Assembly (NCBI GenBank): GCA_021513695.1
Contig: CP084166.1
Span: forward strand, 480,001-544,000
Reading direction: 5' to 3'
Source: Candidatus Heimdallarchaeum aukensis
GTDB taxonomy: Archaea; Asgardarchaeota; Heimdallarchaeia; Heimdallarchaeales; Heimdallarchaeaceae
Length of the DNA: 64,000 bases
Shown: in pieces, positions 5,901 through 29,200 of the stretch
Layout of the letters: each line of letters begins with the position of its first letter
Numbering within the stretch: position 1 is the first letter of the stretch
Made by a program: the position numbers and the translations under genes
Notes under the pieces: model-generated
Databases searched by the model: none
What the model was told of the DNA's origin: nothing
The model's input: the letters and a program-made list of their open reading frames with translations, nothing else

Positions 5901-7518
5901 TGGTTCTCGACCTTTTGATTCCAAGGCAGACGGTTTTGTAATGGGAGAAGGATGTGGTTTTCTTGTCTTGAAGAAATTGAAAAAAGCTATTGAAGACAAT
6001 GACAAAATTTATGCCATAATTGATTCTGTTGGTTCTTCCTCTGATGGTAAAGGAAAAGGAATTACTGCTCCTAATCCTTTAGGACAAAAAGAAGCTATTG
6101 AAAGAGCTCTTGAACAAGCTAAAGTTTCTCCTTCTGAGATAGATTTAATTGAAGCACATGGAACTTCCACCATAGTAGGAGATAAAACAGAAGTTCAAGT
6201 TTTAAATGAGATTTTCACAGAAAAACAAAAAGAAAGAAAAAGGAAAATAGCTCTTGGTTCAATTAAAAGCCAAATTGGTCATTTAAAGAGCGCAGCAGGT
6301 ATAGCTTCTGTTATAAAAGTAGCTTTAGCTCTTGACAAGAAAATTCTTCCACCAACGATAAATGTTCAAGAACTTAATCCTGCGATTGATTGGAATAATT
6401 CTAATCTTTTTGTTAATCTTGATGCTCAACCATGGGAAAAGGTTGATAACTCTATCAGAAGAGCAGGAGTTTCTGCTTTTGGTTTTGGAGGAACAAATTA
6501 TCATACAATCTTGGAAGAATATATTCCAGAAGCACAGTACATAGAAAAAGAAAAGCAACCAATAGTTGAACTAAAAGAACAAAAAGAAGAAGTTTGCTTC
6601 CTTTATACTGGACAAGGAAGTCAATATTTAGGCATGATAAAGGAACTTTATGATAATTATCCAACTGTTAGAAAAACAATAGATGAAGCTTCAGTTATTG
6701 CTAAAGAGAGTTTAAATGCTGATTTGCGTGAAATAATTTTTGGTTCACCTCAACTTTCCAAAGTTGAAAATGAGGAAAGATTAAGACAAACAGAATACAC
6801 TCAACCTTCTCTCTTTGTAGTCGAAGTTGCTTTAACTAGATTATTGAAAGAAAAAGGAATTGAGCCTACAAGAGTAGCTGGACATAGTTTAGGAGAATAT
6901 ACTGCTTTAGTTGCTGCGGGAGTGTTCTCTTTTGAAGATGGATTAAAAGCTGTAATAGAAAGAGGAAAAGCGATGGCAAAAGCTTCTAAAAGTATCCCTG
7001 GAGCAATGGCAGCTATTCTTACATCTCAAGAAAAAGTTAAGGAAATTATAGAAAAGGTAAATGAAGGTTATATAACAGTAGCCAATTATAACTCATTAAA
7101 CCAAACAGTGATTTCGGGAGAAGAAAAAGCTGTAAACAAAGCTATAGAACTTTTCTCTGCAAGAAAAATAAAAGCAATAAAATTAAATGTTTCAACAGCT
7201 TTTCATTCTATTATTGTTAAAGATGCAGAAATAGAAATGGAGAGAGTGCTTAACAGCCTGACTTACAATAAACCTTCAATTCCTGTCTATTCAAATGTAA
7301 CGGGAAGTTTGTACCCTGACAAACCCTCTAAAATTAAAGAACTTCTAATTAATCAGCTCTGTAATTCTGTTCAATGGGTTAAGATTTCAGAAATGGTCAT
7401 TAATTGCTGCAAAAGAAGCTTTAGAAGATGCTGGAATACCCACAGATGGCAAGAAACGCCTACCTATAGGAGTAATTGTAGGCAATGCTTTAGGTGGAGA
7501 AAATCAGAGAATTACTAA
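2998..7518 (+). CDS. Type I PUFA-synthase/PKS-like megasynthase, part 1 (ER-like, ER, KS, AT); 3' end is an out-of-frame read into a tandem duplication
   Basis: ATG 2998 lies 5 nt after a GAGGAGA SD. aa 14-245 form an NMO/FabK-like barrel with KGIEAGGKVG, where a Lys codon (3421-3423) sits where His is usual. aa 332-665 form a PfaD/FabK-type enoyl reductase (YPIIQGPMANVS, LEGSECGGHIG, His codon 4405-4407). aa 714-1170 form a ketosynthase (IAIVGIGSFFPDAP, TTDAACASS with Cys codon 5755-5757, EAHGTST, SQIGHLKSAAG). This is followed by a malonyl/acyl transferase (FLYTGQGSQY, GHSLGEY with Ser codon 6886-6888, AFHS). The last ~44 codons (from 7386) are frame-shifted KS sequence. Confidence 0.85.
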   Translation: MKTLKELKNELQIKYPIFGYNPIGLADPTLAIEISKLGGVGLINTIGLEQEELTKILDQCELNLPTQLWGIRINDLSHIKWINHERSIPIVILPEKPTRLQLDKLRKISKFIVAEVLFVEEAKSHLEWSDFFLVKGIEAGGKVGTKASFIQIQEFYETGWPFIIQGGMGAFNISSALIGGAIGVVFEGQLYQFPECPLSEEAKKYLASLGENDSFIINESGKEGYRISGKLANKAIREIKQLEEESSEEKILDRITEFEKPHDQFGFKSQNIKHAFLPLGNDVFFSTFFKKRFGNLTNFVEQALKIADEQIQIALRNWPFAKGSTLSNFLGTKYPIIQGPMANVSDNVDFAINVAKNGALPFLALGGLLKEETEELFDKVRESELVKYSYGCGIIGLEAVKQRREEHLSLMRDLKPPFALIAAGTVNLAKQVQEMGFKTLLHTPALSMFKDSIKNGIDLQILEGSECGGHIGLLSSFILWESILEFLDENREQIEKPLKIAFAGGISDGTSSAMLAVMIAKHLDIIESAIQMGTSYLFTEEILETKALTGFYQELLLNSNYTRIIGSTVNTRARAAPSPFVDQTIKRERERIRQKIPIKERKELYEKDNLGALRIAAKAEKWNNDHVPGTATTQFIKIDEEEQKNFGCFMAGEVIAKKRSIYKIDDLHYDISVIGKEILEKQSTSIADYLLSKEKLEAYVSKEQSPLVIDSTNKIAIVGIGSFFPDAPNTEKFWENIVNKHYAVTEVPIERWDPKYYYDEDRTAPDKTYTKIGAFVKEFKFKPIQFKIPPKVAEKMDEVQKWSLIAAKEALEDAGIPTDGKKRLPIGVIVGNALGGENQRITNRRLHYPEIEEQLKILLSSKLSDEEVEKFVSSFKKEYLSKYAEITEDTMPGELSNVVAGRIANIFNLSGKSMTTDAACASSLAALDIAVKSLLNNDFDTILVGGADRSMDVSSYVKFSKIGALSATGSRPFDSKADGFVMGEGCGFLVLKKLKKAIEDNDKIYAIIDSVGSSSDGKGKGITAPNPLGQKEAIERALEQAKVSPSEIDLIEAHGTSTIVGDKTEVQVLNEIFTEKQKERKRKIALGSIKSQIGHLKSAAGIASVIKVALALDKKILPPTINVQELNPAIDWNNSNLFVNLDAQPWEKVDNSIRRAGVSAFGFGGTNYHTILEEYIPEAQYIEKEKQPIVELKEQKEEVCFLYTGQGSQYLGMIKELYDNYPTVRKTIDEASVIAKESLNADLREIIFGSPQLSKVENEERLRQTEYTQPSLFVVEVALTRLLKEKGIEPTRVAGHSLGEYTALVAAGVFSFEDGLKAVIERGKAMAKASKSIPGAMAAILTSQEKVKEIIEKVNEGYITVANYNSLNQTVISGEEKAVNKAIELFSARKIKAIKLNVSTAFHSIIVKDAEIEMERVLNSLTYNKPSIPVYSNVTGSLYPDKPSKIKELLINQLCNSVQWVKISEMVINCCKRSFRRCWNTHRWQETPTYRSNCRQCFRWRKSENY

Positions 7519-9378
7519 CAGGAGATTACACTATCCAGAAATTGAAGAACAACTAAAAATTTTATTAAGCTCAAAATTGTCTGATGAGGAAGTAGAAAAG
7601 TTTGTTTCTTCTTTCAAGAAAGAATATCTCAGTAAATACGCAGAGATTACAGAGGATACTATGCCTGGAGAATTATCTAATGTTGTTGCGGGAAGAATAG
7701 CCAATATATTCAATTTATCTGGTAAATCAATGACAACAGATGCTGCATGTGCTTCTTCTCTTGCTGCTCTGGACATTGCGGTAAAAAGTTTGTTGAATAA
7801 CGATTTTGATACTATTCTTGTTGGCGGAGCAGATAGATCTATGGATGTTTCTTCTTATGTTAAATTCAGTAAGATCGGTGCTCTTTCTGCAACTGGTTCT
7901 CGACCTTTTGATTCCAAGGCAGACGGTTTTGTAATGGGAGAAGGATGTGGTTTTCTTGTCTTGAAGAAATTGAAAAAAGCTATTGAAGACAATGACAAAA
8001 TTTATGCCATAATTGATTCTGTTGGTTCTTCCTCTGATGGTAAAGGAAAAGGAATTACTGCTCCTAATCCTTTAGGACAAAAAGAAGCTATTGAAAGAGC
8101 TCTTGAACAAGCTAAAGTTTCTCCTTCTGAGATAGATTTAATTGAAGCACATGGAACTTCCACCATAGTAGGAGATAAAACAGAAGTTCAAGTTTTAAAT
8201 GAGATTTTCACAGAAAAACAAAAAGAAAGAAAAAGGAAAATAGCTCTTGGTTCAATTAAAAGCCAAATTGGTCATTTAAAGAGCGCAGCAGGTATAGCTT
8301 CTGTTATAAAAGTAGCTTTAGCTCTTGACAAGAAAATTCTTCCACCAACGATAAATGTTCAAGAACTTAATCCTGCGATTGATTGGAATAATTCTAATCT
8401 TTTTGTTAATCTTGATGCTCAACCATGGGAAAAGGTTGATAACTCTATCAGAAGAGCAGGAGTTTCTGCTTTTGGTTTTGGAGGAACAAATTATCATACA
8501 ATCTTGGAAGAATATATTCCAGAAGCACAGTACATAGAAAAAGAAAAGCAACCAATAGTTGAACTAAAAGAACAAAAAGAAGAAGTTTGCTTCCTTTATA
8601 CTGGACAAGGAAGTCAATATTTAGGCATGATAAAGGAACTTTATGATAATTATCCAACTGTTAGAAAAACAATAGATGAAGCTTCAGTTATTGCTAAAGA
8701 GAGTTTAAATGCTGATTTGCGTGAAATAATTTTTGGTTCACCTCAACTTTCCAAAGTTGAAAATGAGGAAAGATTAAGACAAACAGAATACACTCAACCT
8801 TCTCTCTTTGTAGTCGAAGTTGCTTTAACTAGATTATTGAAAGAAAAAGGAATTGAGCCTACAAGAGTAGCTGGACATAGTTTAGGAGAATATACTGCTT
8901 TAGTTGCTGCGGGAGTGTTCTCTTTTGAAGATGGATTAAAAGCTGTAATAGAAAGAGGAAAAGCGATGGCAAAAGCTTCTAAAAGTATCCCTGGAGCAAT
9001 GGCAGCTATTCTTACATCTCAAGAAAAAGTTAAGGAAATTATAGAAAAGGTAAATGAAGGTTATATAACAGTAGCCAATTATAACTCATTAAACCAAACA
9101 GTGATTTCGGGAGAAGAAAAAGCTGTAAACAAAGCTATAGAACTTTTCTCTGCAAGAAAAATAAAAGCAATAAAATTAAATGTTTCAACAGCTTTTCATT
9201 CTATTATTGTTAAAGATGCAGAAATAGAAATGGAGAGAGTGCTTAACAGCCTGACTTACAATAAACCTTCAATTCCTGTCTATTCAAATGTAACGGGAAG
9301 TTTGTACCCTGACAAACCCTCTAAAATTAAAGAACTTCTAATTAATCAGCTCTGTAATTCTGTTCAATGGGTTAAGAT
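5393..9378. repeat. Head-to-tail tandem duplication, 2 x 1,993 bp (copy 1 5393-7385, copy 2 7386-9378), inside the synthase KS-AT region
   Basis: All shadow ORFs recur at an offset of exactly 1,993 with identical translations (5538-5783 vs 7531-7776; 6325-6558 vs 8318-8551; 6362-6544 vs 8355-8537; 6455-6664 vs 8448-8657). About 600 aa of the main frame are identical between copies. The junction reads gttaagat|ttcagaaatgg. 1,993 is not a multiple of 3. Confidence 0.95.
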
Positions 9379-12300
9379 AATTGAAGAGATGTATAACGAT
9401 GGAGGAAGAATTTTTGTAGAAGTAGGACCTAAAAAAGCATTGTACAACTTTGTTAAAGATATTTTAGGTGAAAAAGAAGACATTCAAACTTTTCTTACAT
9501 TAAACCCGAAAGTAGGAGAGTTAAAATCTTTTAATGATACTGTCTCTAAATTAAAAATGAGCAAAAGAAGAGAAACCGAAACCCCAGTTCAAACTAAAGA
9601 AAAAATAGTTTACAAAGAATCAGCACTAGATGTTTTACTTAAAAATAAAGAGATTAACAACTTGGTCTCTAAACCCTATTTCCGTGAGTATTTGAAAGAG
9701 AACAGCAATCTTCTTTCATCTATAATGAAACAAGGTTACGAGCAGTTCTCAAAGTACAGAGAATCATTGGTTATTGCTGAAAAAGCTAAATATTGGGATA
9801 TAAACTTTGATCTTATTGGTGTTACTGGTGTTGGAATTGGTCTCCCAGGAAAGAATAGAGCTGTTTTCTCTGATGATAATTTTGATCTTATTCTCAATGG
9901 AACAAATCTTATCGAATCTGTTGAAGATACAATAAAACAAGAAACTTTAGACAAAAACATCGTTAGGTTAGTTAAATCTCCTGATGGTAATGCAACTTTT
10001 GAAGCAATTGACGATATAAGTAAAGTTATTCAACTTGCAGCACAGATAGGAGAATTAAACTTCAAAGAATTAGGTATAGAAGATAAATTGGCTAAAGCTT
10101 TAGACTCCACTTTTATTATGGCTATAGGTGCAGGACTAGAAGCGTTGAAAGATGCTGGTATTCCTCTTGTTGAAAGCAAAATAGTTACTTCAACTGGAAA
10201 AACTTTGAAAGGGAGCTGGACTTTACCAGAATCCTTACAACATGATACTGGAATAGTTTTTGCTTCTGCTTTTCCCGGATATGATAATTTAGTAGATGAA
10301 GTAACAAGACATCTTGTAGCTAAATTTGAAAACAAAACTAATAAAGAGATTGAGGAGATATTTGAGCAATTAATTAATGTTGTATCAAACCCTGAAGCAA
10401 AAGAAGAGATCTCTAACTGGTTCTTGGAGAAACAATCTCTACTGGAAGAAAAAGAAGAAAAGTATACTTTTAGTAGAGAGTTCCTTTACAAAGTTTTGTC
10501 TATGGGGCACTCTCAATTTGCCCAATTTATTAAAGCTAAAGGTCCGAATACTCAAGTCAATGCTGCTTGTGCTTCTACAACCCAAGCAATTGGTGTAGCA
10601 GAAGATTGGATAAGAACTGGAAGATGTAAGAGAGTAATAGTAATAGCTGGAGACAATGCTGCAAGCAAGAATCTGTTACCTTGGATAGGTGGGGGATTCT
10701 TAGCAGCTGGGGGAGTAACCACAAAAGCCGATGTTAAAGAAGCTGCTTTACCTTTTGGAAAAGAAAGACATGGATTAATTATAGGTTCAGCTTCTGCAGG
10801 TCTTGTAATTGAAAGCAGAGAATCCTATGAAGAAAGAGGAGTTAAACCAATAGTAGACCTTGTGGGTACTTATATGGCAAATAGTGCTTATCATGGTTCT
10901 AGATTAGATGTCAACCATATTTCTGAAGAACTTGAAAGCTTTATTGAAAAAGTAGAAAGAAGATATAATATCGACAGGAAAAATATCGCTAAAGAAGGTA
11001 TTTTTGTCTCTCATGAAACTTATACACCTGCAAGAGGAGGAAGTGCAGAAGCAGAAATTCAATCACTTCTTAATGTTTTCAAAGAAGATGCTTATTCTAT
11101 GACCATAATAAACACAAAAGGATTTACAGGTCATTCAATGGGTGCAGGAATAGAAGAAGCTGTAGCTATTAAAGCAATAGAAAAAGGTAAGATTCCTCCA
11201 ATTGCTAACATAGAGAAACTTGACCCTGCCTTTTCTAAATTTAAGTTCTCAAAAGGAGAAAAGAGAAGATTTTCCTTCGCTTTGAGATTAGCAGCTGGAT
11301 TTGGGTCACAATTAGCTTTTGCTCTCTTCAGGTTAAATACTTACGACAACAGATTCTCTGCCCAATACAATGAATGGCTCAAGAGTCTTGGTGGTGGCAA
11401 AGAAGAGTTATTTGTTGAAGGCAGAGTACTTAAACTCAAAACAGATAATAAGAAAAAACAAGCTGATTTAGTTAAGAAACCAGCAGTACAAAAAACTGTT
11501 GAAAAGAAAATTAAAACTGTTACAAAAGCACCTACAGATATTCTTCAAGTTGTAAAAGATATTATTTCTGAAAAAACAGGTTATGAAACAGAAGTCATTG
11601 AAGAAAATATGCATTTAGAAGAAGATCTTGGGATTGACAGTATTAAAGCAGCAGAAATAATGAACGATATTAGCGATAAATGGTCAATACCTCAAGAAAA
11701 ACTCTTCGAACAATTTGATATCGATACACCAGGAAAAATTGCAAAGTTCATTTCTGAAAACACAAGCGCTCCTGAAGAGACAAGTTATTCAGTTGAAACA
11801 ACTGTAGCAAAAGAGGAAGTAAAAAGAGCAGAAACTTCTAGTGTTTCAACAGGAGATATTTTAGTGCGAATTAAAGAAGTAATTGGAAAACACACAGGTT
11901 ATGACATTCAAGATCTAGATGAAAACTATGACCTAGAAGAAGATCTGGGAATAGATACAGTAAAACAAGCAGAAATTTTTGGAGATTTAAGAGATTTATT
12001 CGGATTGGATTTAGATGAGACTTATGCTTTAGCAGATTATCGAACAATAGCTGACATTGCCCAAGCAATATCTACAGAGAAACCAGTGGAAAAGGTTAAA
12101 CAAGTGGAAACTGAAGAAAGCGGAGAGATTAGAACAGCACAACAACCAACAATCATATCTGAAGCTGAAAGTTCAATTTCCAGAGAAGAAGTTACAAAAG
12201 AAGTGCTTTCAATTATCTCAGAAATTACAGGATACGATACAGAAGATATAGAAATAGAGATGGATCTAGAGGAAGATTTGGGTGTTGATAGTATCAAGAT

Positions 12301-15300
12301 TGCTGAAATTCTAAGCTCTTTGGGAAGTAAGTTCGACCTTGAATTTGATGAGATGTCTGATCTTTCAGGAATTAGAAATACAGAAGATATAGTGGAAGCA
12401 GTGATAAAAATTAAGCAATCCATTGAACAAACTCAAACCCCAACCAAAACAGAAGAACAATTAGCTGTAAGTCAAAAACTTAAAGTTGAACAAGAAGAAG
12501 AAATAGTTATTCGTAGTGTAGAACCTGTTCTAAAGCCTTTAGAACAAAGTGAAGTAAATAAATTTAATCTAGAAGATAAAAATCTCTTACTTCTAGATAT
12601 TCATTCAAAAGAAGCCAAATATATCTATTCTTTACTTGAACAGAAGAAGGCTAAAATTGAGCTTGTTAGGATTAATTCTGAAGACTCAGAAAAACCAAAT
12701 AATAATAAATATGACTTAATCTTAATCTTATTACCAGATGATCACAATTCTGCAAATGATACTAAATACTTTGAGCAACTATTTCTTACCCTACAACAGC
12801 TAGAGTACAATCATAATACTAAGATTGTTTCTTACTCTGTTGAAGACTATTTAGACTCTAAAAAGGAGATAATTCCTTTAAGTGGAGGTATATCCGCTTT
12901 TGTTAAGACTATTGGTCAAGAATTTGAACTAGACATTAAACATGTTTATTCCACAAAACCTGAAGAACTAGTTACAGAGTTGGAAAATTGGGATAAAAAC
13001 CTTGAAGTTATTTATTCAGAGGGTAAAAGATACATTTTCAGTCACATGAGAAAAATACCTCTAGAACAATTACAAAAAGAAAAAATCGAACTTACAGAAG
13101 ATGATCTTATACTTGTTACTGGAGGAGCAAGAGGTATCACTTATGAATGTATTAAAGAACTTACAAAAGATGCTAAACCTTCAATTGCTATCGTTGGTAG
13201 AACTAAACTTCCAGAAGATGTATCTGAATTGCTCTTCTTAACCGACAAAGAAATAGCAAACAAAAAAGAAGAGATAAAAGAAAAACTTGCTCAAGAAAAT
13301 GAAAAAGTTACTCCAGTGATGATAGAAAAAGCTTGGAAACGCTTCCTAAACACTGTTGAAATTGCAAAGAATATTCTCTATTTAATTGAAAATGAAGTGA
13401 ATGCTAACTATTATTCTGCAGATGTTTCAGATGAAGAACAAATGAAAAGTGTTTTGAGTCAAATTGAAGAAGATTTCGAAAAAACTATAACTCTTATTGT
13501 ACATGGTGCGGGAATAGAAGAATCTAAAGCTTTCAAGAAAAAGAAACTAGAAATGGCAAAGAAAATAGTACAAGTAAAGATTTCAGGGTTATACAATATT
13601 CTAAATAATATAGATCAATCTAATTTGAAGAAGATCATCTGCTTTAGCTCAATTGCAGGAAGATTTGGTAATAGAGGACAAGTGGATTATGCTTTTGCAA
13701 ATGGTTATCTAGCTAGAACATGCTGGAAGTTTAAACAACAAGGAATTAACGCTCTAGCTATAGATTGGTCAGCTTGGGCAGATATAGGCATGGCAACACA
13801 AGGTTCTATTCTTAAAGTGCTGAAAGCTGCAGGAATAACTCCCATTCCATTAAAAGAAGGAATAAGAATATTTTCTGAACTAACCAATTACAATGTAGAA
13901 CAAAGTGAATTAATAGTTGCAGGAAAACTTGGACTTCTTCTAAAAGAAATAGAAGATAAAAAAACAAGTGGTCAACACGATACTAGTATGAACACAGAGA
14001 GTTATCCAATGATTGATGAAATTAGAAAAACAGACAACGGTTTTATTGCTTCAAAGACACTAAAATATGATTATGACTTATACATGAGAGATCATCAAAT
14101 CCAAGGATTGCCAATATTTCCTGCAGTAATGGGATTAGAATTCTTCGCTGAGATGTTCAAACTTACAACAGAAAAAGATGTTTACGCAATAGCAGAAGTA
14201 TCGTTTAGAGAAGCAATTAAACAGTTTAAGAACAAAAATGTTGAACTTCAATGTTCATTTGATACAGAAAGAGGGGATATGGAAATTAAAACAATCTTTA
14301 CAGACATTAAAGGAGTTCAAAAAGAAAAGAAACACTTCTTCTGTAAGTCTGTAAAAGATACGACAGAAAAAAGCTATAAGAAAAAGAAGATAGAAAAAAG
14401 AGTGATACCACTACTTTCCAAAGAAGTGATCTATCAGCTTTTCTTCCATGGTCCAAGTTTTCAAGTTTTGGAGAATTTGAATGAGATAAAAGGAAATATC
14501 ATCTCCACTAATGTCCAGATTCCAAATCTGCCTTTATTCAAAGATGAAGAATTGAAAACTATTCTCGTTCCTCGAGCAATAGAAGCGGCTTTACAGACAG
14601 CAGGGTTGTATGACATGTTCATTAACAATGTTGTTTCATTGCCATCAAAAATAAAAAACTTGGAAGTATACAAGGAAACAGAAGCTGTTTTTGCTGAAGC
14701 TGAATTCCTAAAGATAGAGGAAAGACATAGTTTCTTCAATGTAAAGATTTACGATGCTGAAGGAGAAGTAATAATGGTTTTAGAACAACTAGGAATGATA
14801 CATACTTCTATGCCCATAAATTTGGACGAAAAAGGAAAGAAACTCTTCCAGATGATTAAAGGATATCATGAAATAAGAACAAAAGTAGATGACGAAAAAG
14901 TAGCTGTTTTACCTATTCACAAAGTAGTAGAAGAATACAGAAAAAATAGACAAGAACTAGAAAATAAACTAGTTGCTTACGAAAAAACAAGATTTACTAA
15001 AATATCCAACGAAAAAAGAAAAATGGAATATTTAGCGGGAGTAATCCTTGCTAAAGAACTTTTTTCCAAATATGAAAACATTACCGATTTCAGAAGTATA
15101 GAAATAAAAAAGAAGAGTAAGGGGCAACCTTACTTTTTCAACAGACAACTAAAAGAAGAAACGGATTGGTATGTTTCTATTAGTCATTCAAATGATTTCG
15201 CTGTAGTCTCTATTGAGAAACAACCAGTAGGAATAGACATAGAAAAAGTAGAAGAAAGAAGTAAAAGTTTCTATGGCGAAGTTTTTTCAGATTATGAATT

Positions 15301-15538
15301 ATCAAAAATTGCTGATGACCATACTTTAGGAACAAAATATTGGACTGCTAAAGAGTCATTAACTAAAGCATTAGGAGAAGGATTACATATTAAACTAAAA
15401 GAAATTGAGTTTGGTTACAACGATGGCAAATTTGATCTAAAAAAATATCCTTCTTCTCTAAAACAAGATCAATTGCAGACTTCTATTGAATCTATTGAAG
15501 CAGCAGGTTATGTTGTTTCTAAATGTGTAATAAAATAA
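7577..15538 (+). CDS. Type I PUFA-synthase/PKS-like megasynthase, part 2 (KS remnant, AT, second KS, 3 ACP, KR, DH, PPTase); the called start is not a real start
   Basis: The frame is the KS frame of duplication copy 2, and TTG 7577 is internal to the KS. KS Cys codon is 7748-7750 and AT Ser codon is 8879-8881. The second KS-like domain spans aa 745-1255 (GVTGVGIGLPG; NAACAST with Cys codon 10568-10570; SHETYTP; TGHSMGAG). ACP1 has LGIDS (Ser codon 11639-11641), ACP2 has LGIDT (Thr codon 11957-11959) and ACP3 has LGVDS (Ser codon 12290-12292). KR shows LVTGGARGIT from 13106 and GNRGQVDYAFAN. The PKS-type DH has HQIQGLPIFP (His codon 14093-14095). The C-terminal 4'-phosphopantetheinyl transferase has GIDIEKV from 15230 and WTAKESLTKALG. 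Confidence 0.85.
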   Translation: MSDEEVEKFVSSFKKEYLSKYAEITEDTMPGELSNVVAGRIANIFNLSGKSMTTDAACASSLAALDIAVKSLLNNDFDTILVGGADRSMDVSSYVKFSKIGALSATGSRPFDSKADGFVMGEGCGFLVLKKLKKAIEDNDKIYAIIDSVGSSSDGKGKGITAPNPLGQKEAIERALEQAKVSPSEIDLIEAHGTSTIVGDKTEVQVLNEIFTEKQKERKRKIALGSIKSQIGHLKSAAGIASVIKVALALDKKILPPTINVQELNPAIDWNNSNLFVNLDAQPWEKVDNSIRRAGVSAFGFGGTNYHTILEEYIPEAQYIEKEKQPIVELKEQKEEVCFLYTGQGSQYLGMIKELYDNYPTVRKTIDEASVIAKESLNADLREIIFGSPQLSKVENEERLRQTEYTQPSLFVVEVALTRLLKEKGIEPTRVAGHSLGEYTALVAAGVFSFEDGLKAVIERGKAMAKASKSIPGAMAAILTSQEKVKEIIEKVNEGYITVANYNSLNQTVISGEEKAVNKAIELFSARKIKAIKLNVSTAFHSIIVKDAEIEMERVLNSLTYNKPSIPVYSNVTGSLYPDKPSKIKELLINQLCNSVQWVKIIEEMYNDGGRIFVEVGPKKALYNFVKDILGEKEDIQTFLTLNPKVGELKSFNDTVSKLKMSKRRETETPVQTKEKIVYKESALDVLLKNKEINNLVSKPYFREYLKENSNLLSSIMKQGYEQFSKYRESLVIAEKAKYWDINFDLIGVTGVGIGLPGKNRAVFSDDNFDLILNGTNLIESVEDTIKQETLDKNIVRLVKSPDGNATFEAIDDISKVIQLAAQIGELNFKELGIEDKLAKALDSTFIMAIGAGLEALKDAGIPLVESKIVTSTGKTLKGSWTLPESLQHDTGIVFASAFPGYDNLVDEVTRHLVAKFENKTNKEIEEIFEQLINVVSNPEAKEEISNWFLEKQSLLEEKEEKYTFSREFLYKVLSMGHSQFAQFIKAKGPNTQVNAACASTTQAIGVAEDWIRTGRCKRVIVIAGDNAASKNLLPWIGGGFLAAGGVTTKADVKEAALPFGKERHGLIIGSASAGLVIESRESYEERGVKPIVDLVGTYMANSAYHGSRLDVNHISEELESFIEKVERRYNIDRKNIAKEGIFVSHETYTPARGGSAEAEIQSLLNVFKEDAYSMTIINTKGFTGHSMGAGIEEAVAIKAIEKGKIPPIANIEKLDPAFSKFKFSKGEKRRFSFALRLAAGFGSQLAFALFRLNTYDNRFSAQYNEWLKSLGGGKEELFVEGRVLKLKTDNKKKQADLVKKPAVQKTVEKKIKTVTKAPTDILQVVKDIISEKTGYETEVIEENMHLEEDLGIDSIKAAEIMNDISDKWSIPQEKLFEQFDIDTPGKIAKFISENTSAPEETSYSVETTVAKEEVKRAETSSVSTGDILVRIKEVIGKHTGYDIQDLDENYDLEEDLGIDTVKQAEIFGDLRDLFGLDLDETYALADYRTIADIAQAISTEKPVEKVKQVETEESGEIRTAQQPTIISEAESSISREEVTKEVLSIISEITGYDTEDIEIEMDLEEDLGVDSIKIAEILSSLGSKFDLEFDEMSDLSGIRNTEDIVEAVIKIKQSIEQTQTPTKTEEQLAVSQKLKVEQEEEIVIRSVEPVLKPLEQSEVNKFNLEDKNLLLLDIHSKEAKYIYSLLEQKKAKIELVRINSEDSEKPNNNKYDLILILLPDDHNSANDTKYFEQLFLTLQQLEYNHNTKIVSYSVEDYLDSKKEIIPLSGGISAFVKTIGQEFELDIKHVYSTKPEELVTELENWDKNLEVIYSEGKRYIFSHMRKIPLEQLQKEKIELTEDDLILVTGGARGITYECIKELTKDAKPSIAIVGRTKLPEDVSELLFLTDKEIANKKEEIKEKLAQENEKVTPVMIEKAWKRFLNTVEIAKNILYLIENEVNANYYSADVSDEEQMKSVLSQIEEDFEKTITLIVHGAGIEESKAFKKKKLEMAKKIVQVKISGLYNILNNIDQSNLKKIICFSSIAGRFGNRGQVDYAFANGYLARTCWKFKQQGINALAIDWSAWADIGMATQGSILKVLKAAGITPIPLKEGIRIFSELTNYNVEQSELIVAGKLGLLLKEIEDKKTSGQHDTSMNTESYPMIDEIRKTDNGFIASKTLKYDYDLYMRDHQIQGLPIFPAVMGLEFFAEMFKLTTEKDVYAIAEVSFREAIKQFKNKNVELQCSFDTERGDMEIKTIFTDIKGVQKEKKHFFCKSVKDTTEKSYKKKKIEKRVIPLLSKEVIYQLFFHGPSFQVLENLNEIKGNIISTNVQIPNLPLFKDEELKTILVPRAIEAALQTAGLYDMFINNVVSLPSKIKNLEVYKETEAVFAEAEFLKIEERHSFFNVKIYDAEGEVIMVLEQLGMIHTSMPINLDEKGKKLFQMIKGYHEIRTKVDDEKVAVLPIHKVVEEYRKNRQELENKLVAYEKTRFTKISNEKRKMEYLAGVILAKELFSKYENITDFRSIEIKKKSKGQPYFFNRQLKEETDWYVSISHSNDFAVVSIEKQPVGIDIEKVEERSKSFYGEVFSDYELSKIADDHTLGTKYWTAKESLTKALGEGLHIKLKEIEFGYNDGKFDLKKYPSSLKQDQLQTSIESIEAAGYVVSKCVIK

Positions 15539-15572
15539 TATGGAGATTAAAAAAAAAAAAAGGTGATAATAT

Positions 15573-16334
15573 ATGTTACAACTGAATTATGATATAAAAT
15601 TTAGAAAGGATTTCATTCATGGAATTCTTTATTTGCCGGATGAAGAGGGGCAGTTCCCTTTAGTTATAAGATTGAACGGTTTTCCGGGCAATTCTCCAGA
15701 AAAAGAAGAACAAAGATTAGCAGATATTATCACCCAGAATAATATGGCTTTTTATGCCTTTGACTATGTAGGAGTAAGAAAAAGTACAGGGACATTTAAT
15801 TATTATACGAGTTTGGAAAACATAAATACTGTTATAACAGATTTATCACATCATCCTCGAATTAATCCTGCAAAGATTGCTCTTCTTGGAGAAAGCTTCG
15901 GAGGAGCAATGGCAATAAGCCAAGGAGTAAGAGACCAAAGAATAAAATGTATTGTTTTAAGGTCTCCTGTATATGATACTGAAGTTATTCCTCAAATACC
16001 GTCTTTTAATACTTTAGTTAAAATATGGTCCAGAAACAATCAAATACGTTTCCCTAAAGGAGACATAAGTGAATTATACTACAAACAAACTAATCTTTAC
16101 AATCCTAAAAAAATAGCAAATTTAGTTAATTGCCCCGTAAAATTGATTGCAGGAGATAAAGATGAGTTGTTGGAAGTTAAGGGTTTTAGAGAACTTTACA
16201 AATGTTTACCACGGAAACTAAGAAAAGGAATTGATATCATTAAAGGAGCAGATCATAACTTTACTAAACAAAAACAGTTTATAGAATTAAAGAGTGAACT
16301 TTCCAGCTTTTTGACTTGTTGCCTTTTAGGGTAA
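15573..16334 (+). CDS. Alpha/beta-fold hydrolase (dienelactone hydrolase / BAAT-type thioesterase-like)
   Basis: GESFGG forms a GxSxG nucleophile elbow. Downstream AGDKDELL supplies the Asp and GADHNF the His. An AGGTGAT SD lies 6 nt before the ATG. Length is 253 aa. Confidence 0.75.
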   Translation: MLQLNYDIKFRKDFIHGILYLPDEEGQFPLVIRLNGFPGNSPEKEEQRLADIITQNNMAFYAFDYVGVRKSTGTFNYYTSLENINTVITDLSHHPRINPAKIALLGESFGGAMAISQGVRDQRIKCIVLRSPVYDTEVIPQIPSFNTLVKIWSRNNQIRFPKGDISELYYKQTNLYNPKKIANLVNCPVKLIAGDKDELLEVKGFRELYKCLPRKLRKGIDIIKGADHNFTKQKQFIELKSELSSFLTCCLLG

Positions 16335-16355
16335 ATAACTTATGGAGTGCAAAAG

Positions 16356-16838
16356 ATGAAGAAAAAAATAATCTACAACAATGAAGAATACATAATAGAA
16401 GCTAAAGGAGAAGACGAGATAGTAGTGAATAATAAGACTTTCAAAGTTAACTTAAAAGAGAAAAACAAGAATTTTTTCAATATAGAAATTCAAGGAAAGA
16501 AGTTTATTATAGAAGTAAGAGAAGGAGAATTCTATTTAGACGGAGAGAAAATAGAAAAATTATCAATTAGCCCCTATTTTCCACAATTAAAGAAACAAAA
16601 ACAAATGATTAACTCTCAAAAAGAAGTAGTAAAAGCACCTATACCAGGAACTATAACTCAAATACTAGTTAAAGAAGGAGATACAGTAAAAAAAGACCAA
16701 GAATTATTTATCCTTGAAGCGATGAAAATGAGAAATAGAATCTTAACAACCATTGACAAAGGTGTAGTAAAAAAAATCTACGTTAGCGAGAATGAAACTG
16801 TATCTCAAGATCAAAAACTAGCTATAATTGAAAATTAA
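16356..16838 (+). CDS. accB: Biotin carboxyl carrier protein (archaeal AccB-type, biotinyl domain)
   Basis: The C-terminal biotinyl domain carries the EAMKM motif (ILEAMKMRNRI). A GGAGTG SD lies 6 nt before ATG 16356, whereas the ORF caller started at GTG 16347. Its size of about 160 aa resembles archaeal AccB. Confidence 0.8.
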   Translation: MKKKIIYNNEEYIIEAKGEDEIVVNNKTFKVNLKEKNKNFFNIEIQGKKFIIEVREGEFYLDGEKIEKLSISPYFPQLKKQKQMINSQKEVVKAPIPGTITQILVKEGDTVKKDQELFILEAMKMRNRILTTIDKGVVKKIYVSENETVSQDQKLAIIEN

Positions 16839-17073
16839 ATAAAAAAATAACAAAACAAATTTATTGCAAAAATAATTTAAAATTCGCACAAATATTTGGA
16901 TACTTCTTCTTTTTTAAATTCAAATTTTATCAAAAACTTGAAAAGAATGCTAAATAGTCTATTTTTTAAATAAATAGGAAACAAAAAAAGTTTAGACTAA
17001 GTGGTTAGTTTTTGAAGTATAAATGAGGAGAAATAGGAACTGTATAATTTAAAGAAGAATAAAAAAAATAGGA

Positions 17074-17661
17074 CTAATCAACCATAAGTTTGGGAAATTT
17101 TGAAAGTTCCATTAATTTCATGAATTTTTTTCCTTTCTTAAAAATAGTATCTATACATTCAATTATTATATCCAAAAGCTCTTCTACTTTTTCTTTTTTT
17201 ACAGGTTTTAGTCCATGAGCAAGTATTGATTCATTTCTCTCTTTTAAAAGGTCTTTCATTTTGTTGGATGAAGAAAACATTTTCCCAAGATCATCATTCA
17301 AATCGTCTAAAACTAGATAACAATCATATAATCCCAACTTTACTTTTGAACCATTACTTTTTCTTTCTTTGAAATAACTTATACGTTGAGAAGAAACTCC
17401 TAACTTTTCTAATTGCTCTAAGGATATGTCATGGGGAGGTAAATTGTAGGCACTCTTTAATCTATACTGTGCCATAAGTTCTACAGCTCTGTAGAGCCTA
17501 GCCATTGCATCATCAAACTTTTCTTCTTTTAATCGACGTTTTGCGTTATTTAATAAATCTGCAAGAAAATAAAGGTCTTTCTCTATTTTTTTATCACTTT
17601 TATGTAACAAGTCGCACAAAAATTCTTTATTAAAACTATATTCTTTGCCAAGCTGTTTCAT
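17074..17661 (-). pseudogene. Truncated duplicate of the csx1 3' half (C-terminal 195 aa, HEPN part)
   Basis: Its translation is identical to residues 215-409 of the 19770-20999 product. Its 5' end is the duplication junction at 17690/17691. Confidence 0.85.
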
Positions 17662-17679
17662 TTTATCAAAAGCTTCTTT

Positions 17680-18234
17680 ATGGTTAAATCTACTAAAATA
17701 TCCAACGAAAAAAGAAAAATGGAATATTTAGCGGGAGTAATCCTTGCTAAAGAACTTTTTTCCAAATATGAAAACATTACCGATTTCAGAAGTATAGAAA
17801 TAAAAAAGAAGAGTAAGGGGCAACCTTACTTTTTCAACAGACAACTAAAAGAAGAAACGGATTGGTATGTTTCTATTAGTCATTCAAATGATTTCGCTGT
17901 AGTCTCTATTGAGAAACAACCAGTAGGAATAGACATAGAAAAAGTAGAAGAAAGAAGTAAAAGTTTCTATGGCGAAGTTTTTTCAGATTATGAATTATCA
18001 AAAATTGCTGATGACCATACTTTAGGAACAAAATATTGGACTGCTAAAGAGTCATTAACTAAAGCATTAGGAGAAGGATTACATATTAAACTAAAAGAAA
18101 TTGAGTTTGGTTACAACGATGGCAAATTTGATCTAAAAAAATATCCTTCTTCTCTAAAACAAGATCAATTGCAGACTTCTATTGAATCTATTGAAGCAGC
18201 AGGTTATGTTGTTTCTAAATGTGTAATAAAATAA
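17680..18234 (+). pseudogene. Duplicated fragment of the synthase C-terminal PPTase domain
   Basis: From ISNEKRKMEYLAGV onward it is identical to the last ~178 aa of the 7577-15538 product. The first codons cross the duplication junction, and there is no credible promoter or SD. Confidence 0.85.
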
Positions 18235-18269
18235 TATGGAGATTAAAAATAAAAAAAAGGTGATAATAT

Positions 18270-19031
18270 ATGTTACAACTGAATTATGATATAAAATTTA
18301 GAAAGGATTTCATTCATGGAATTCTTTATTTGCCGGATGAAGAGGGGCAGTTCCCTTTAGTTATAAGATTGAACGGTTTTCCGGGCAATTCTCCAGAAAA
18401 AGAAGAACAAAGATTAGCAGATATTATCACCCAGAATAATATGGCTTTTTATGCCTTTGACTATGTAGGAGTAAGAAAAAGTACAGGGACATTTAATTAT
18501 TATACGAGTTTGGAAAACATAAATACTGTTATAACAGATTTATCACATCATCCTCGAATTAATCCTGCAAAGATTGCTCTTCTTGGAGAAAGCTTCGGAG
18601 GAGCAATGGCAATAAGCCAAGGAGTAAGAGACCAAAGAATAAAATGTATTGTTTTAAGGTCTCCTGTATATGATACTGAAGTTATTCCTCAAATACCGTC
18701 TTTTAATACTTTAGTTAAAATATGGTCCAGAAACAATCAAATACGTTTCCCTAAAGGAGACATAAGTGAATTATACTACAAACAAACTAATCTTTACAAT
18801 CCTAAAAAAATAGCAAATTTAGTTAATTGCCCCGTAAAATTGATTGCAGGAGATAAAGATGAGTTGTTGGAAGTTAAGGGTTTTAGAGAACTTTACAAAT
18901 GTTTACCACGGAAACTAAGAAAAGGAATTGATATCATTAAAGGAGCAGATCATAACTTTACTAAACAAAAACAGTTTATAGAATTAAAGAGTGAACTTTC
19001 CAGCTTTTTGACTTGTTGCCTTTTAGGGTAA
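18270..19031 (+). CDS. Alpha/beta-fold hydrolase, duplicate copy
   Basis: The 253-aa translation is identical to 15573-16334. It is part of the 2,696-bp tandem duplication. Confidence 0.7.
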   Translation: MLQLNYDIKFRKDFIHGILYLPDEEGQFPLVIRLNGFPGNSPEKEEQRLADIITQNNMAFYAFDYVGVRKSTGTFNYYTSLENINTVITDLSHHPRINPAKIALLGESFGGAMAISQGVRDQRIKCIVLRSPVYDTEVIPQIPSFNTLVKIWSRNNQIRFPKGDISELYYKQTNLYNPKKIANLVNCPVKLIAGDKDELLEVKGFRELYKCLPRKLRKGIDIIKGADHNFTKQKQFIELKSELSSFLTCCLLG

Positions 19032-19052
19032 ATAACTTATGGAGTGCAAAAG

Positions 19053-19517
19053 ATGAAGAAAAAAATAATCTACAACAATGAAGAATACATAATAGAAGCT
19101 AAAGGAGAAGACGAGATAGTAGTGAATAATAAGACTTTCAAAGTTAACTTAAAAGAGAAAAACAAGAATTTTTTCAATATAGAAATTCAAGGAAAGAAGT
19201 TTATTATAGAAGTAAGAGAAGGAGAATTCTATTTAGACGGAGAGAAAATAGAAAAATTATCAATTAGCCCCTATTTTCCACAATTAAAGAAACAAAAACA
19301 AATGATTAACTCTCAAAAAGAAGTAGTAAAAGCACCTATACCAGGAACTATAACTCAAATACTAGTTAAAGAAGGAGATACAGTAAAAAAAGACCAAGAA
19401 TTATTTATCCTTGAAGCGATGAAAATGAGAAATAGAATCTTAACAACCATTGACAAAGGTGTAGTAAAAAAATCTACGTTAGCGAGAATGAAACTGTATC
19501 TCAAGATCAAAAACTAG
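19053..19517 (+). pseudogene. BCCP duplicate with a frameshifted C-terminus
   Basis: It is identical to accB up to VVKK. An A7 run (A8 in copy 1) then shifts the frame, so the last ~20 residues are replaced (STLARMKLYLKIKN). The EAMKM motif is retained. Confidence 0.7.
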
Positions 19518-19769
19518 CTATAATTGAAAATTAAATAAAAAAATAACAAAACAAATTTATTGCAAAAATAATTTAAAATTCGCACAAATATTTGGATACT
19601 TCTTCTTTTTTAAATTCAAATTTTATCAAAAACTTGAAAAGAATGCTAAATAGTCTATTTTTTAAATAAATAGGAAACAAAAAAAGTTTAGACTAAGTGG
19701 TTAGTTTTTGAAGTATAAATGAGGAGAAATAGGAACTGTATAATTTAAAGAAGAATAAAAAAAATAGGA

Positions 19770-20999
19770 CTAATCAACCATAAGTTTGGGAAATTTTGAA
19801 AGTTCCATTAATTTCATGAATTTTTTTCCTTTCTTAAAAATAGTATCTATACATTCAATTATTATATCCAAAAGCTCTTCTACTTTTTCTTTTTTTACAG
19901 GTTTTAGTCCATGAGCAAGTATTGATTCATTTCTCTCTTTTAAAAGGTCTTTCATTTTGTTGGATGAAGAAAACATTTTCCCAAGATCATCATTCAAATC
20001 GTCTAAAACTAGATAACAATCATATAATCCCAACTTTACTTTTGAACCATTACTTTTTCTTTCTTTGAAATAACTTATACGTTGAGAAGAAACTCCTAAC
20101 TTTTCTAATTGCTCTAAGGATATGTCATGGGGAGGTAAATTGTAGGCACTCTTTAATCTATACTGTGCCATAAGTTCTACAGCTCTGTAGAGCCTAGCCA
20201 TTGCATCATCAAACTTTTCTTCTTTTAATCGACGTTTTGCGTTATTTAATAAATCTGCAAGAAAATAAAGGTCTTTCTCTATTTTTTTATCACTTTTATG
20301 TAACAAGTCGCACAAAAATTCTTTATTAAAACTATATTCTTTGCCAAGCTGTTTCATTTTATCAAAAGCTTCTTTATGGTTAAATCTATCCCATAAACTA
20401 AAAGAATCAATTAAATTGTAATAGTATTCTTTTGTTTTGTCTCCGTTTAATAATACTATTTCATCTAAATAATTTCGTGCAGCATTATATCGATAATTAT
20501 TGAAAGATTCTTTCATTCTCCTTAACAATAATTTGTCATATACTGAATAAAGACTTTGCTCGACAATTCTTTCAGTACCTGAAAGAACAACACCATCTTT
20601 TCTTCTGCCTGAAATCAAAGTTAGTTTTTTGTGAAAAAGTACTGCAGCGATAGCTGCACTCATAGTCATTGTTTTTGTTCCAGAAGTATAGTCAATTATT
20701 ATTTCAGAATTGGAATACTTGTATATCTCATTCTGAATTAGTTGAAAACAACTATCAAAATCATCAATAGAAGTAAATTGAATAAATTCGTAAGAAGACA
20801 ATTCCTTGTTATACTGTGATTTATGTTGCCTTTCTATCTCCTTTATTGTTTTACGACTGTCTTCAGAACCAAAAAAAACAATATGATCAGGTTTATAGTG
20901 TTCAATACAAACTAGCAGTCCATGAGCTAAACTCTCAATTTTCTTGTCAACGTCCTCCCCTATTGCAGTTCCTACAGTCATAAAAAGAATACGTTTCAT
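19770..20999 (-). CDS. csx1: CARF-HEPN ancillary CRISPR ribonuclease (Csx1 / Cas02710-like)
   Basis: The N-terminal Rossmann-like CARF domain shows ILFMTVGTA and IIIDYTSGTKTMTMSAA. The C-terminal HEPN domain shows the R-x6-H motif ERNESILAHG. It lies immediately downstream of cmr6 on the same strand. Confidence 0.8.
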   Translation of the reverse strand: MKRILFMTVGTAIGEDVDKKIESLAHGLLVCIEHYKPDHIVFFGSEDSRKTIKEIERQHKSQYNKELSSYEFIQFTSIDDFDSCFQLIQNEIYKYSNSEIIIDYTSGTKTMTMSAAIAAVLFHKKLTLISGRRKDGVVLSGTERIVEQSLYSVYDKLLLRRMKESFNNYRYNAARNYLDEIVLLNGDKTKEYYYNLIDSFSLWDRFNHKEAFDKMKQLGKEYSFNKEFLCDLLHKSDKKIEKDLYFLADLLNNAKRRLKEEKFDDAMARLYRAVELMAQYRLKSAYNLPPHDISLEQLEKLGVSSQRISYFKERKSNGSKVKLGLYDCYLVLDDLNDDLGKMFSSSNKMKDLLKERNESILAHGLKPVKKEKVEELLDIIIECIDTIFKKGKKFMKLMELSKFPKLMVD

Positions 21000-21111
21000 G
21001 GTAAACCACTAACTAACTTTTAAAATAATTAAATCAAAATTTTTAAGCGTTACTAAAAACAAATATGTAAATAAAGCAATTACAAGGTAAAAATCCGTCA
21101 TCTTACTCAAC

Positions 21112-21930: not shown

Positions 21931-22325
21931 TTTTCATTCACCTCAACCTTGGCTTGAGCTAGTTTTTTTAGCCATCCAAGGAACTCTAAAGTTTCTATCT
22001 GTGCAAGAATATACTCATCTTGTGTTGCATTTGTAATGTTATAAATTAAATCATTAGAATCTGTAAAAATATTCACCTTTTTTAACCATGTTTCTATAAT
22101 ATCAACAATTTTTTTATGGGCCTTTTTATCGCCATTATCGGGTTTAGGAGTTGCACTTGCTAGTTCCATTGCAATGGCTTGTCCAAGACCATTCATTACA
22201 ATTGTAGCTGGTAAACTTTTCACATAACTTAAAAAGCTTGAATTGTTTATTTCGTCATCATCAATTACTTCATTTATTGATGCTAAAGCAAATTTAGCCC
22301 TATCGTTATCTGATAAAAACTCCAG
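21927..22325 (-). CDS. cmr5: Cmr5 (small alpha-helical subunit); start uncertain (CTG 22325-22323)
   Basis: LPATIVMNGLGQAIAMELA matches the Cmr5 P-x-M-I-x-x-NGL-x-Q core. The frame is open for 35 codons upstream of the called GTG and encodes DRAKFALASINEV, which is typical of Cmr5 N-termini. Confidence 0.75.
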   Translation of the reverse strand: MEFLSDNDRAKFALASINEVIDDDEINNSSFLSYVKSLPATIVMNGLGQAIAMELASATPKPDNGDKKAHKKIVDIIETWLKKVNIFTDSNDLIYNITNATQDEYILAQIETLEFLGWLKKLAQAKVEVNEN

Positions 22326-22327
22326 AT

Positions 22328-23227: not shown

Positions 23228-23228
23228 A

Positions 23229-28980: not shown

Positions 28981-29200
28981 GAGTATACAAATTGCTCTTA
29001 CATCGCATTAAAATGAATACAATTGTAATAAAATCAATTCACCCTTATTACTCTGGAAAGTTTTCCAATAATGGAAATGTTCCTAGAGAAATTGGTGCAA
29101 TATATGATTCTTTAGTTTGCATTAATTCATAACTCTAGAAGAAGGATTTTTGAACAAGATTAAATTAAAAAAAAAAAAGGATATAGAGAAAGTTGAGTTG

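What the first reader, a model, noticed from the sequence alone, without database searches (positions are those of the whole stretch)
14995..20386. 2,696-bp tandem duplication spanning the synthase 3' end, hydrolase, BCCP and half of csx1
Seen: 14995-17690 is repeated at 17691-20386, with a 2-bp ta junction microhomology. The copies differ only at two A-runs: a T inserted in A13, and A8 vs A7. The second difference frameshifts the copy-2 BCCP. The duplication creates a csx1 3' fragment (17074-17661) abutting a PPTase fragment (17680-18234). Inference: this is a recent duplication or an assembly artefact. The homopolymer-only differences look like read or polishing errors rather than divergence.
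Basis: seen in the sequence. Interest (0 to 1): 0.55.

Follow-up and report, generated by a model that had tools for sequence, protein, structure and literature searches.

The report
Recent tandem duplication, read-graph supported
A 2.7-kb stretch of the published Candidatus Heimdallarchaeum aukensis (Asgard archaeon) genome is present twice, head to tail; independent read-graph contigs support the join, the two one-base differences look like uncorrected consensus errors, and the feature is an ordinary young structural variant, not a new system.

Summary
Window 14995-17690 is repeated at 17691-20386. There are no substitutions and two 1-nt indels in A-runs, and a 2-nt TA is shared at the join.

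The window is the GenBank complete MAG of Ca. Heimdallarchaeum aukensis. It was assembled with metaSPAdes, scaffolded with LRScaf using MDA-amplified Nanopore reads, then polished with pilon.

Logan contigs (k=31 de Bruijn graph) from three SRA runs end to the base where a repeated unit predicts. One 2699-nt contig equals the unit plus TA. The flanking contigs overlap it by exactly 30 nt. So the unit has two entries and two exits in the reads, and the join is very probably real in the DNA.

The unit contig carries neither deletion, and every relative has the undeleted state. Roughly 52 kb of the window outside the unit is 100% identical to the short-read contigs. The two differences, including the BCCP "frameshift", are therefore most likely errors that polishing could not fix. 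All relatives are single-copy.

Copy number and population frequency remain unmeasured. A second exact tandem duplication nearby (5393-7385 = 7386-9378) is not supported by the read graph. It falsely splits a 3515-aa megasynthase gene.

Low interest, but useful as a correction to a reference genome.

The parts
14995..17690 (.). Copy 1 of the duplicated unit (2696 nt as assembled; true unit probably 2697 nt)
17691..20386 (.). Copy 2 of the duplicated unit
17689..17692 (.). Novel head-to-tail junction (TC|TA). TA at 17691-17692 is also found at 20387-20388 (2-nt microhomology).
   Evidence: The Logan unit contig ends with this TA.
15549..15561 (+). Site 1: A13 in copy 1, against A5-T-A8 at 18245-18258 in copy 2. 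It lies between the synthase stop codon and the hydrolase start codon. Copy 1 probably lacks a T through consensus error.
   Evidence: PR6 and Logan contigs from two runs carry the same A5-T-A8 as copy 2; L001 also carries a T, in a different arrangement.
19466..19472 (+). Site 2: A7 in copy 2, against A8 at 16769-16776 in copy 1. It shifts the frame of the copy-2 BCCP. Probably a consensus error.
   Evidence: All six other sequences compared have A8.
2998..15538 (+). Megasynthase gene (NMO-type ER, KS, AT, KS-like, ACPs, KR, DH, PPTase). The unit starts in its PPTase-coding 3' end. In the window it is split by a second duplication.
15573..16334 (+). Alpha/beta hydrolase, copy 1 (UJG41227). 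Copy 2 at 18270-19031 (UJG41231) is identical.
16356..16838 (+). Biotin/lipoyl carrier protein (BCCP-like, EAMKM motif), copy 1 (UJG41228). Copy 2 at 19053-19517 has an altered C-terminus.
17074..17661 (-). Csm6-type HEPN-only fragment (195 aa, UJG41229), a by-product of the duplication
17680..18234 (+). PPTase-domain fragment. The mechanical ORF starts 11 nt before the junction. GenBank calls 17719-18234 (171 aa, UJG41230).
19770..20999 (-). Intact csm6-type CARF-6H-HEPN gene (409 aa, UJG41233). The unit ends at its codon 205.
5393..9378 (.). Second, exact tandem duplication (5393-7385 = 7386-9378, 1993 nt, no microhomology). It is not supported by the short-read contig. It is relevant as a control for how this assembly behaves.

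Best explanation
This is a genuine, very young head-to-tail segmental duplication of a 2697-nt unit in the Ca. Heimdallarchaeum aukensis population that was sequenced.

**How it arose (inferred).** It formed by illegitimate recombination, or template switching between sister chromosomes, with at most 2 nt of microhomology. One breakpoint lies in the PPTase-coding end of the lipid/polyketide-type megasynthase gene. The other lies in the middle of the convergent csm6-type gene.

**What it leaves.**
- One intact copy of each broken gene.
- A second copy of the hydrolase and of the biotin carrier gene.
- Two gene fragments.

**Function (inferred).** It has no demonstrated function and is probably neutral and unstable.

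**The two 1-nt differences (inferred).** These are not divergence. They are residual errors of Nanopore-derived sequence. Pilon could not correct them because short reads align to whichever copy is already right at that site.

**Shown.**
- The repeat itself.
- Single-copy relatives.
- Read-graph break points at both unit boundaries.
- The undeleted state in the short-read unit contig.

**Inferred.**
- That the second context of the unit is its own other end.
- The copy number of 2.
- The mechanism.
- The error origin of the differences.
For: **1. Source of the window.** It is the GenBank Ca. H. aukensis MAG. The hydrolase carries two accessions, UJG41227 and UJG41231.

**2. Read-graph evidence.** Logan contigs have every 31-mer only once by construction (PMC12424806). 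A tandem repeat must therefore appear as left contig, unit contig and right contig, overlapping by 30 nt.
- In run SRR15988954, contig _21955 (2699 nt) is exactly the unit plus TA.
- Contig _7381 (13596 nt) maps to an end at window 15024, 30 nt into the unit.
- Contig _7509 starts at 20359, 30 nt before the end of unit+TA.
- In run SRR15988958 a contig starts exactly at the unit's first base.
- In run SRR15988959 a contig ends exactly at 20359.
- The other end of _7509 abuts a DDE transposase, so these contigs do break at repeats.

**3. Nature of the unit.** Its boundaries lie inside genes and it holds no mobility gene. Its own other end is therefore the simplest second context. The extent of the unit contig, including the TA, matches that.

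**4. Relatives.** All are single-copy. There are 0 substitutions between the copies.

**5. Errors rather than divergence.**
- The unit contig has T and A8.
- PR6 has the same A5-T-A8 at site 1, L001 also carries a T there, and all six other sequences have A8 at site 2.
- Both changes are deletions in A-runs, and one removes a T from inside a run.
- About 52 kb elsewhere in the window shows 0 differences from the short-read contigs.

**6. Not the circularisation joint.** The authors' end-joining and gap-closing primers are absent from the window.
Against: - No read or contig spanning the junction was seen. De Bruijn contigs cannot span it, and the 40-mer across it is absent from JGI metagenome contigs.
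- Read depth was not available, so copy number and the fraction of cells carrying the duplication are unknown.
- The same assembly contains a second tandem duplication 7.6 kb upstream that the short-read contig contradicts. The pipeline (metaSPAdes, LRScaf with MDA-amplified Nanopore reads, pilon, Table S6) can therefore produce unsupported tandem copies.
- The three runs probably derive from one DNA extraction. They are technical confirmations, not biological ones. I could not check their metadata.
- Logan pops bubbles, so the unit contig could be a mosaic of two truly different copies.
Confidence: 0.65

Rival explanations
1. The copy number is an artefact. Most genomes carry one copy. The join exists only in a minority of molecules: a low-frequency duplication, an excised circle, or chimeric DNA. 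Scaffolding and gap filling with MDA-amplified Nanopore reads turned it into a fixed two-copy locus.
For: - A neighbouring exact 1993-nt tandem duplication in the same assembly is contradicted by a continuous short-read contig, and it breaks a gene that is intact (3515 aa) in the sister species.
- The Nanopore libraries were MDA-amplified, and MDA is known to make chimeras (general knowledge).
- Depth was not measured.
Against: - Minia3 removes weak connections in the way SPAdes does (PMC12424806). The break nevertheless survives at both boundaries in the deep run and at one boundary in each of two further runs.
- The unsupported 1993-nt join left no break.
- By the authors' table, the Illumina library was not MDA-amplified.
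Confidence: 0.22
2. The duplication is real and the differences are real. The copies have begun to diverge by homopolymer indels, and the second BCCP copy is already a pseudogene.
For: - Homopolymer runs are the fastest-mutating sites (general knowledge).
- Logan pops bubbles, so a mosaic unit contig is possible.
- Pilon at 346x left the differences in place.
Against: - The unit contig carries the ancestral state at both sites. That has a 1 in 4 chance if the choices at two bubbles were arbitrary.
- Loss of a T from inside A5-T-A8 is not a slippage product.
- There are no substitutions.
- Site 2 is 921 nt or more from unique sequence, so its assignment to copy 2 can only have come from noisy long reads.
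- Polishing is expected to leave exactly this one-copy-wrong pattern.
Confidence: 0.08
3. The unit has a second context elsewhere, in another genomic place, a co-resident strain or an element, and was wrongly placed in tandem.
For: Graph topology alone shows only two entries and two exits. It does not show which sequences they are.
Against: - The unit starts and ends inside genes and has no transposase, integrase or terminal repeats.
- The deposited genome has exactly two hydrolase copies, both at this locus.
- The unit contig stops after TA, as the tandem join predicts. I estimate roughly 5-10% chance of this under an unrelated context (my own estimate from base composition).
- Relatives at 92-99% identity show nothing comparable.
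Confidence: 0.05

Closest known systems
Spontaneous tandem segmental duplications formed by illegitimate or microhomology-mediated recombination in prokaryotic chromosomes (general knowledge of bacterial genetics)
   Same: - Head-to-tail with no spacer.
- Breakpoints at unrelated sites inside genes with 0-2 nt homology.
- Copies identical.
- One intact copy of each broken gene kept.
- Absent from close relatives.
   Different: - Seen here in an uncultured Asgard archaeon from an enrichment.
- Frequency and stability are unknown.
- No selection for dosage has been shown.
False duplications introduced by scaffolders or gap fillers in hybrid assemblies
   Same: - Exact or near-exact tandem copies in an assembly made by metaSPAdes, LRScaf and pilon.
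- The neighbouring 1993-nt duplication fits this class.
   Different: For the 2.7-kb unit, the read graph of three runs breaks exactly at both boundaries. A purely computational duplication would not cause that.
Polishing blind spots in exact repeats (residual long-read homopolymer errors that short-read polishers cannot fix)
   Same: - Differences are single-base deletions in A-runs.
- One copy is wrong per site.
- They are confined to the repeated segment, while about 52 kb of unique sequence is error-free.
   Different: None noted. It was not tested with reads.

Membership tests
Recent tandem segmental duplication (real structural variant) | Two direct copies abut head to tail with no spacer and near-identity | tested here: met
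   2696 nt twice, 0 substitutions, 2 indels.
Recent tandem segmental duplication (real structural variant) | Single copy in close relatives | tested here: met
   - PR6 and the ENA contig.
- Three JGI contigs run through the right boundary with csm6 intact.
- 41 Asgard loci have the PPT-domain/hydrolase/BCCP block once.
Recent tandem segmental duplication (real structural variant) | The unit behaves as a repeat node in an assembly graph built from reads alone | tested here: met
   Six contig termini in three runs fall at the predicted bases. Logan uses k=31 with distinct 31-mers.
Recent tandem segmental duplication (real structural variant) | Reads span the novel junction, and depth over the unit is about twice that of the flanks | not testable with these tools
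   There is no access to reads or to contig k-mer abundance. The junction 40-mer is absent from JGI contigs, which is uninformative.
False duplication from scaffolding or gap filling | The junction has no trace in read-only assemblies | tested here: not met
   Not met for 14995-20386 (breaks at both boundaries). Met for 5393-9378, where contig SRR15988954_7381 runs through in single copy.
Leftover circularisation overlap | The duplication lies at the authors' end-joining point | tested here: not met
   The end-joining and gap PCR primers quoted in PMC8813620 are not in the window, allowing up to 2 mismatches.
Transposable or integrative element | Mobility gene, terminal repeats, boundaries between genes | tested here: not met
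   The unit holds only a synthase 3' end, hydrolase, BCCP and half of csm6. Both boundaries lie inside coding sequence.
Csm6/Csx1 CARF-HEPN effector (identity of the broken gene) | N-terminal CARF-like Rossmann domain plus C-terminal HEPN domain, next to type III cas genes | tested here: met
   - Csa3_N/CARF-like, Csm6_6H and Csm6 HEPN in the 409-aa protein.
- Cmr2/3/5/6 and RAMP genes are adjacent.
- The 195-aa fragment has HEPN only.

The most novel reading that the evidence does not exclude
The lipid-synthesis locus of this Asgard archaeon is undergoing ongoing, heterogeneous gene amplification in the enrichment culture. Two independent tandem joins within 15 kb would then be present at different frequencies, reflecting selection for higher dosage of the hydrolase/biotin-carrier pair or of a free-standing PPTase domain. 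The alternative is one real neutral duplication plus one artefact.
Probability: 0.06. Interest if true: 0.4.

Novelty: new member of a known kind. Interest (0 to 1): 0.15.

Why it matters
Ca. H. aukensis is one of very few closed Asgard genomes and is used as a reference. At this locus the record gives four misleading gene models:
- A 'frameshifted' biotin carrier.
- A HEPN-only csm6 protein (UJG41229).
- A 171-aa PPTase (UJG41230).
- A 3515-aa megasynthase split into two proteins. This comes from the neighbouring unsupported duplication.

Anyone studying bacterial-type fatty-acid and ester-lipid genes or CRISPR effectors in Asgard archaea should not read these as biology. Apart from that, it is an ordinary young duplication.

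Tried and rejected
- **Exact-product look-up.** The csm6 fragment and the 1506-aa synthase piece gave nothing in contig look-ups. They exist only in the GenBank record.
- **Junction search.** A 40-mer across the junction found 0 hits in JGI metagenome contigs. This is uninformative, because the reads are in SRA, not JGI.
- **Logan partial synthase.** A reconstruction of the 3344-aa Logan partial synthase was not found as an exact sequence. I therefore could not trace contigs of the two smaller runs across the 1993-nt duplication.
- **Tandem Repeats Finder.** It found nothing in the window. Its longest period is 500 nt.
- **Circularisation overlap.** Rejected, because the authors' primers are absent from the window.
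- **Mobile element.** Rejected on gene content and intragenic boundaries.
- **Deletion-variant or strain-bubble explanation for the contig breaks.** Rejected on topology. In those cases the branch nodes would lie in the flanks and the unit contig would carry 30 nt of flank. Here the flank contigs carry 30 nt of the unit.
- **GC-skew switch near 20 kb.** It follows gene orientation and recurs along the window. It is not evidence for a replication terminus.
- **The 2-nt microhomology.** Not significant.
- **A fuzzy-regex script.** It timed out and was replaced by alignments.
Full report
**Observation**

Window 14995-17690 and 17691-20386 are direct, abutting copies of 2696 nt each. They have no substitutions and two single-base indels.
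- Copy 1 has A13 at 15549-15561, where copy 2 has A5-T-A8 (T at 18250).
- Copy 1 has A8 at 16769-16776, where copy 2 has A7 at 19466-19472.

The join reads ...TTAAATC|TACTAAAA. Copy 2 is followed by TATCCC, so TA is shared. Two or more matching bases at such a join are expected by chance about one time in five at this composition. The microhomology is real but carries no weight.

**What the genes are**

Pfam shows a large synthase gene. Once a neighbouring duplication is collapsed, it encodes 3515 aa:
- NMO-type enoyl reductase
- KS, AT and a second KS-like domain
- ACPs
- KR and DH
- a C-terminal Sfp-type PPTase domain

It is followed by an alpha/beta hydrolase and a biotin/lipoyl carrier protein with an EAMKM motif. 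Upstream lie a PlsY-type acyltransferase, a biotin ligase and a carboxyltransferase.

Convergent to this block is a 409-aa CARF-6H-HEPN protein of the Csm6 type. It is the last gene of a type III-B Cmr locus.

The unit runs from codon 2473 of the 2653-aa synthase ORF to codon 205 of csm6. It therefore duplicates:
- almost the whole PPTase domain
- the hydrolase
- the carrier protein
- the HEPN half of csm6

'csx1' is only approximately right.

**Where the window comes from**

Exact look-up shows the proteins are UJG41225-41234 of Candidatus Heimdallarchaeum aukensis, a 3,081,793-bp closed MAG.
- The hydrolase has two accessions.
- The fragments are annotated as proteins UJG41229 and UJG41230.

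The source paper is PMC8813620. It states that this genome was assembled from Illumina PE150 reads with metaSPAdes. It was scaffolded by two rounds of LRScaf with Nanopore reads from MDA-amplified DNA, then polished with pilon at 346x. The paper does not mention the duplication.

The authors' primers for the circular end-joining and for a Sanger-closed gap are not in the window. The repeat is therefore not a leftover circularisation overlap.

**Is the join in the reads?**

This was the decisive question, and it can be answered indirectly.

Logan contigs are built per SRA run from a k=31 de Bruijn graph and simplified by Minia3. Every 31-mer occurs once by construction (PMC12424806). A tandem duplication cannot be written out in such contigs. 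It must appear as a left contig, a unit contig and a right contig that overlap by 30 nt. That is what is found.

In run SRR15988954:
- Contig _21955 is 2699 nt and equals the unit from its first base to its last base plus TA.
- Contig _7381 (13596 nt) is collinear with the window. Its stated length places its end at 15024, 30 nt into the unit. The last 55 nt were not retrieved.
- Contig _7509 begins at 20359, 30 nt before the end of unit+TA.

In two further runs:
- A 1599-nt contig in SRR15988958 starts at exactly the unit's first base.
- A 1609-nt contig in SRR15988959 ends at exactly 20359.

The far end of _7509 abuts a DDE transposase, so these contigs do break at repeats.

The orientation of the overlaps matters. 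The flank contigs carry 30 nt of the unit, not the reverse. This excludes a deletion variant or a strain bubble. It means the unit is entered from two contexts and left into two contexts.

The unit begins and ends inside genes and carries no mobility gene. The simplest second context is therefore its own other end, and the TA at the end of the unit contig is what that join predicts.

I did not see a read across the junction and had no depth information. Copy number and population frequency are inferred, not measured. The three runs probably come from one DNA extraction (Table S6). I could not check their metadata.

**A warning from the same window**

A second tandem duplication lies 7.6 kb upstream. 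5393-7385 equals 7386-9378, 1993 nt at 100% identity with no microhomology.
- Here the short-read contig _7381 runs straight through in single copy.
- Removing one copy restores one ORF of 3515 aa. That is the length of the PR6 orthologue UJG44031.
- GenBank instead has a 1506-aa protein (UJG41226) and a second piece.

This join is therefore absent or rare in that run, and the assembly pipeline can produce unsupported tandem copies. This is why I keep a sizeable probability on the rival, in which the 2.7-kb join is real but minor and the two-copy state is an assembly choice. The contrast between the two cases in the same graph, one with breaks at both ends and one with none, is also the best internal control in favour of the 2.7-kb join.

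**Are the two differences real?**

Several lines say no.
- The short-read unit contig has both the T and A8, so the unit is 2697 nt.
- The second run's contig also has the T.
- PR6 has the same A5-T-A8 as copy 2, and the ENA contig L001 also carries a T at that site in a different arrangement.
- All six other sequences compared have A8.
- Each copy therefore deviates once, by a one-base deletion in an A-rich run. One of these removes a T from inside a run, which slippage does not do.
- About 52 kb of the window outside the unit is 100% identical to short-read contigs. The only two discrepancies fall in the 5.4 kb that short reads cannot place uniquely.

This is the pattern expected when a long-read-derived draft is polished. 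If one copy is wrong at a site, reads align to the other copy and the error stays. Site 2 is more than 900 nt from unique sequence, so its assignment to copy 2 can only have come from noisy long reads.

The 'frameshifted' BCCP is thus most likely not biological. Logan's bubble popping leaves room for real divergence, and I give that 8%.

**Relatives**

- Ca. H. endolithica PR6 (92-94% identical here) and an ENA metagenome contig carry the block once. They pass from the carrier gene directly to the biotin carboxylase gene (window 35862-37442). They lack the roughly 19-kb stretch with the Cmr locus, csm6, a STAND NTPase and an IS.
- Three JGI metagenome contigs (96-99% identical) have csm6 intact next to the carrier gene.
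- All 41 Asgard loci found with the hydrolase have PPTase domain, hydrolase and carrier protein once.

The duplication is therefore specific to this population and very young.

**How it works**

It is a structural variant, not a device. It was most likely formed by illegitimate recombination or template switching between sister chromosomes at unrelated sites. This is inferred from the clean join and the lack of homology.

Consequences:
- Both broken genes keep one intact copy.
- The hydrolase and carrier genes are doubled.
- T-tracts follow the first carrier gene, and copy 2 lacks the operon's upstream region. Its expression is therefore doubtful (inference).
- The HEPN-only fragment has lost the csm6 upstream region.

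Nothing suggests selection.

**Verdict**

The join is most likely real in the DNA (0.65) and the differences are most likely errors. It is an ordinary feature whose value lies in correcting a reference Asgard genome. Interest is low.

Noticed in passing
window 5393-7385 and 7386-9378: Second exact tandem duplication (1993 nt, 100% identical, no microhomology) inside the megasynthase gene. Its length is not a multiple of 3, so it splits the gene: GenBank UJG41226 (1506 aa) plus a second piece. Logan contig SRR15988954_7381 runs through in single copy. Collapsing it restores a 3515-aa ORF, the length of the PR6 orthologue. Probably an assembly artefact or a rare variant.
   Followed up: partly
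window about 16880-35860: A stretch of about 19 kb is absent from Ca. H. endolithica PR6 and from an ENA metagenome relative, where the carrier gene is followed directly by biotin carboxylase. It holds csm6, a Cmr type III-B locus, a P-domain protein, a STAND/TPR NTPase, a nucleotidyltransferase and a DDE transposase. JGI relatives at 96% identity have a shorter version of it.
   Followed up: partly
window 3-16838 and 35862-37442; loci L003-L043: A bacterial-type lipid gene block: PlsY-like acyltransferase, biotin ligase, carboxyltransferase, a one-polypeptide ER-KS-AT-KS-ACP-KR-DH-PPTase synthase, hydrolase, biotin carrier and biotin carboxylase. The PPTase-domain/hydrolase/carrier triad is syntenic in all 41 Heimdall-, Hod-, Loki- and Thor-type loci retrieved.
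   Followed up: partly
window 53701-57287 vs L051 (SRR15988958_211); L052 position about 706: Contigs of run SRR15988958 differ from the window only by longer homopolymers (T9 to T11, G2 to G3, A7 to A8, A5 to A6), with no substitutions. This suggests the run is a noisy long-read or amplified library of the same organism.
   Followed up: no
window 53960-54523 (-) and 59001-59561 (-): Two small Arf/Ras/Roc-type GTPase genes, typical eukaryote-like signature genes of Asgard archaea. They flank an aldehyde:ferredoxin oxidoreductase gene (Pfam labels).
   Followed up: no
L047 8554-8967 (JGI 3300033149): In one of three otherwise near-identical JGI contigs, the carrier-protein gene is called as only 77 aa and is 94% rather than 100% identical. 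This may be a local variant or an assembly error in that contig.
   Followed up: no
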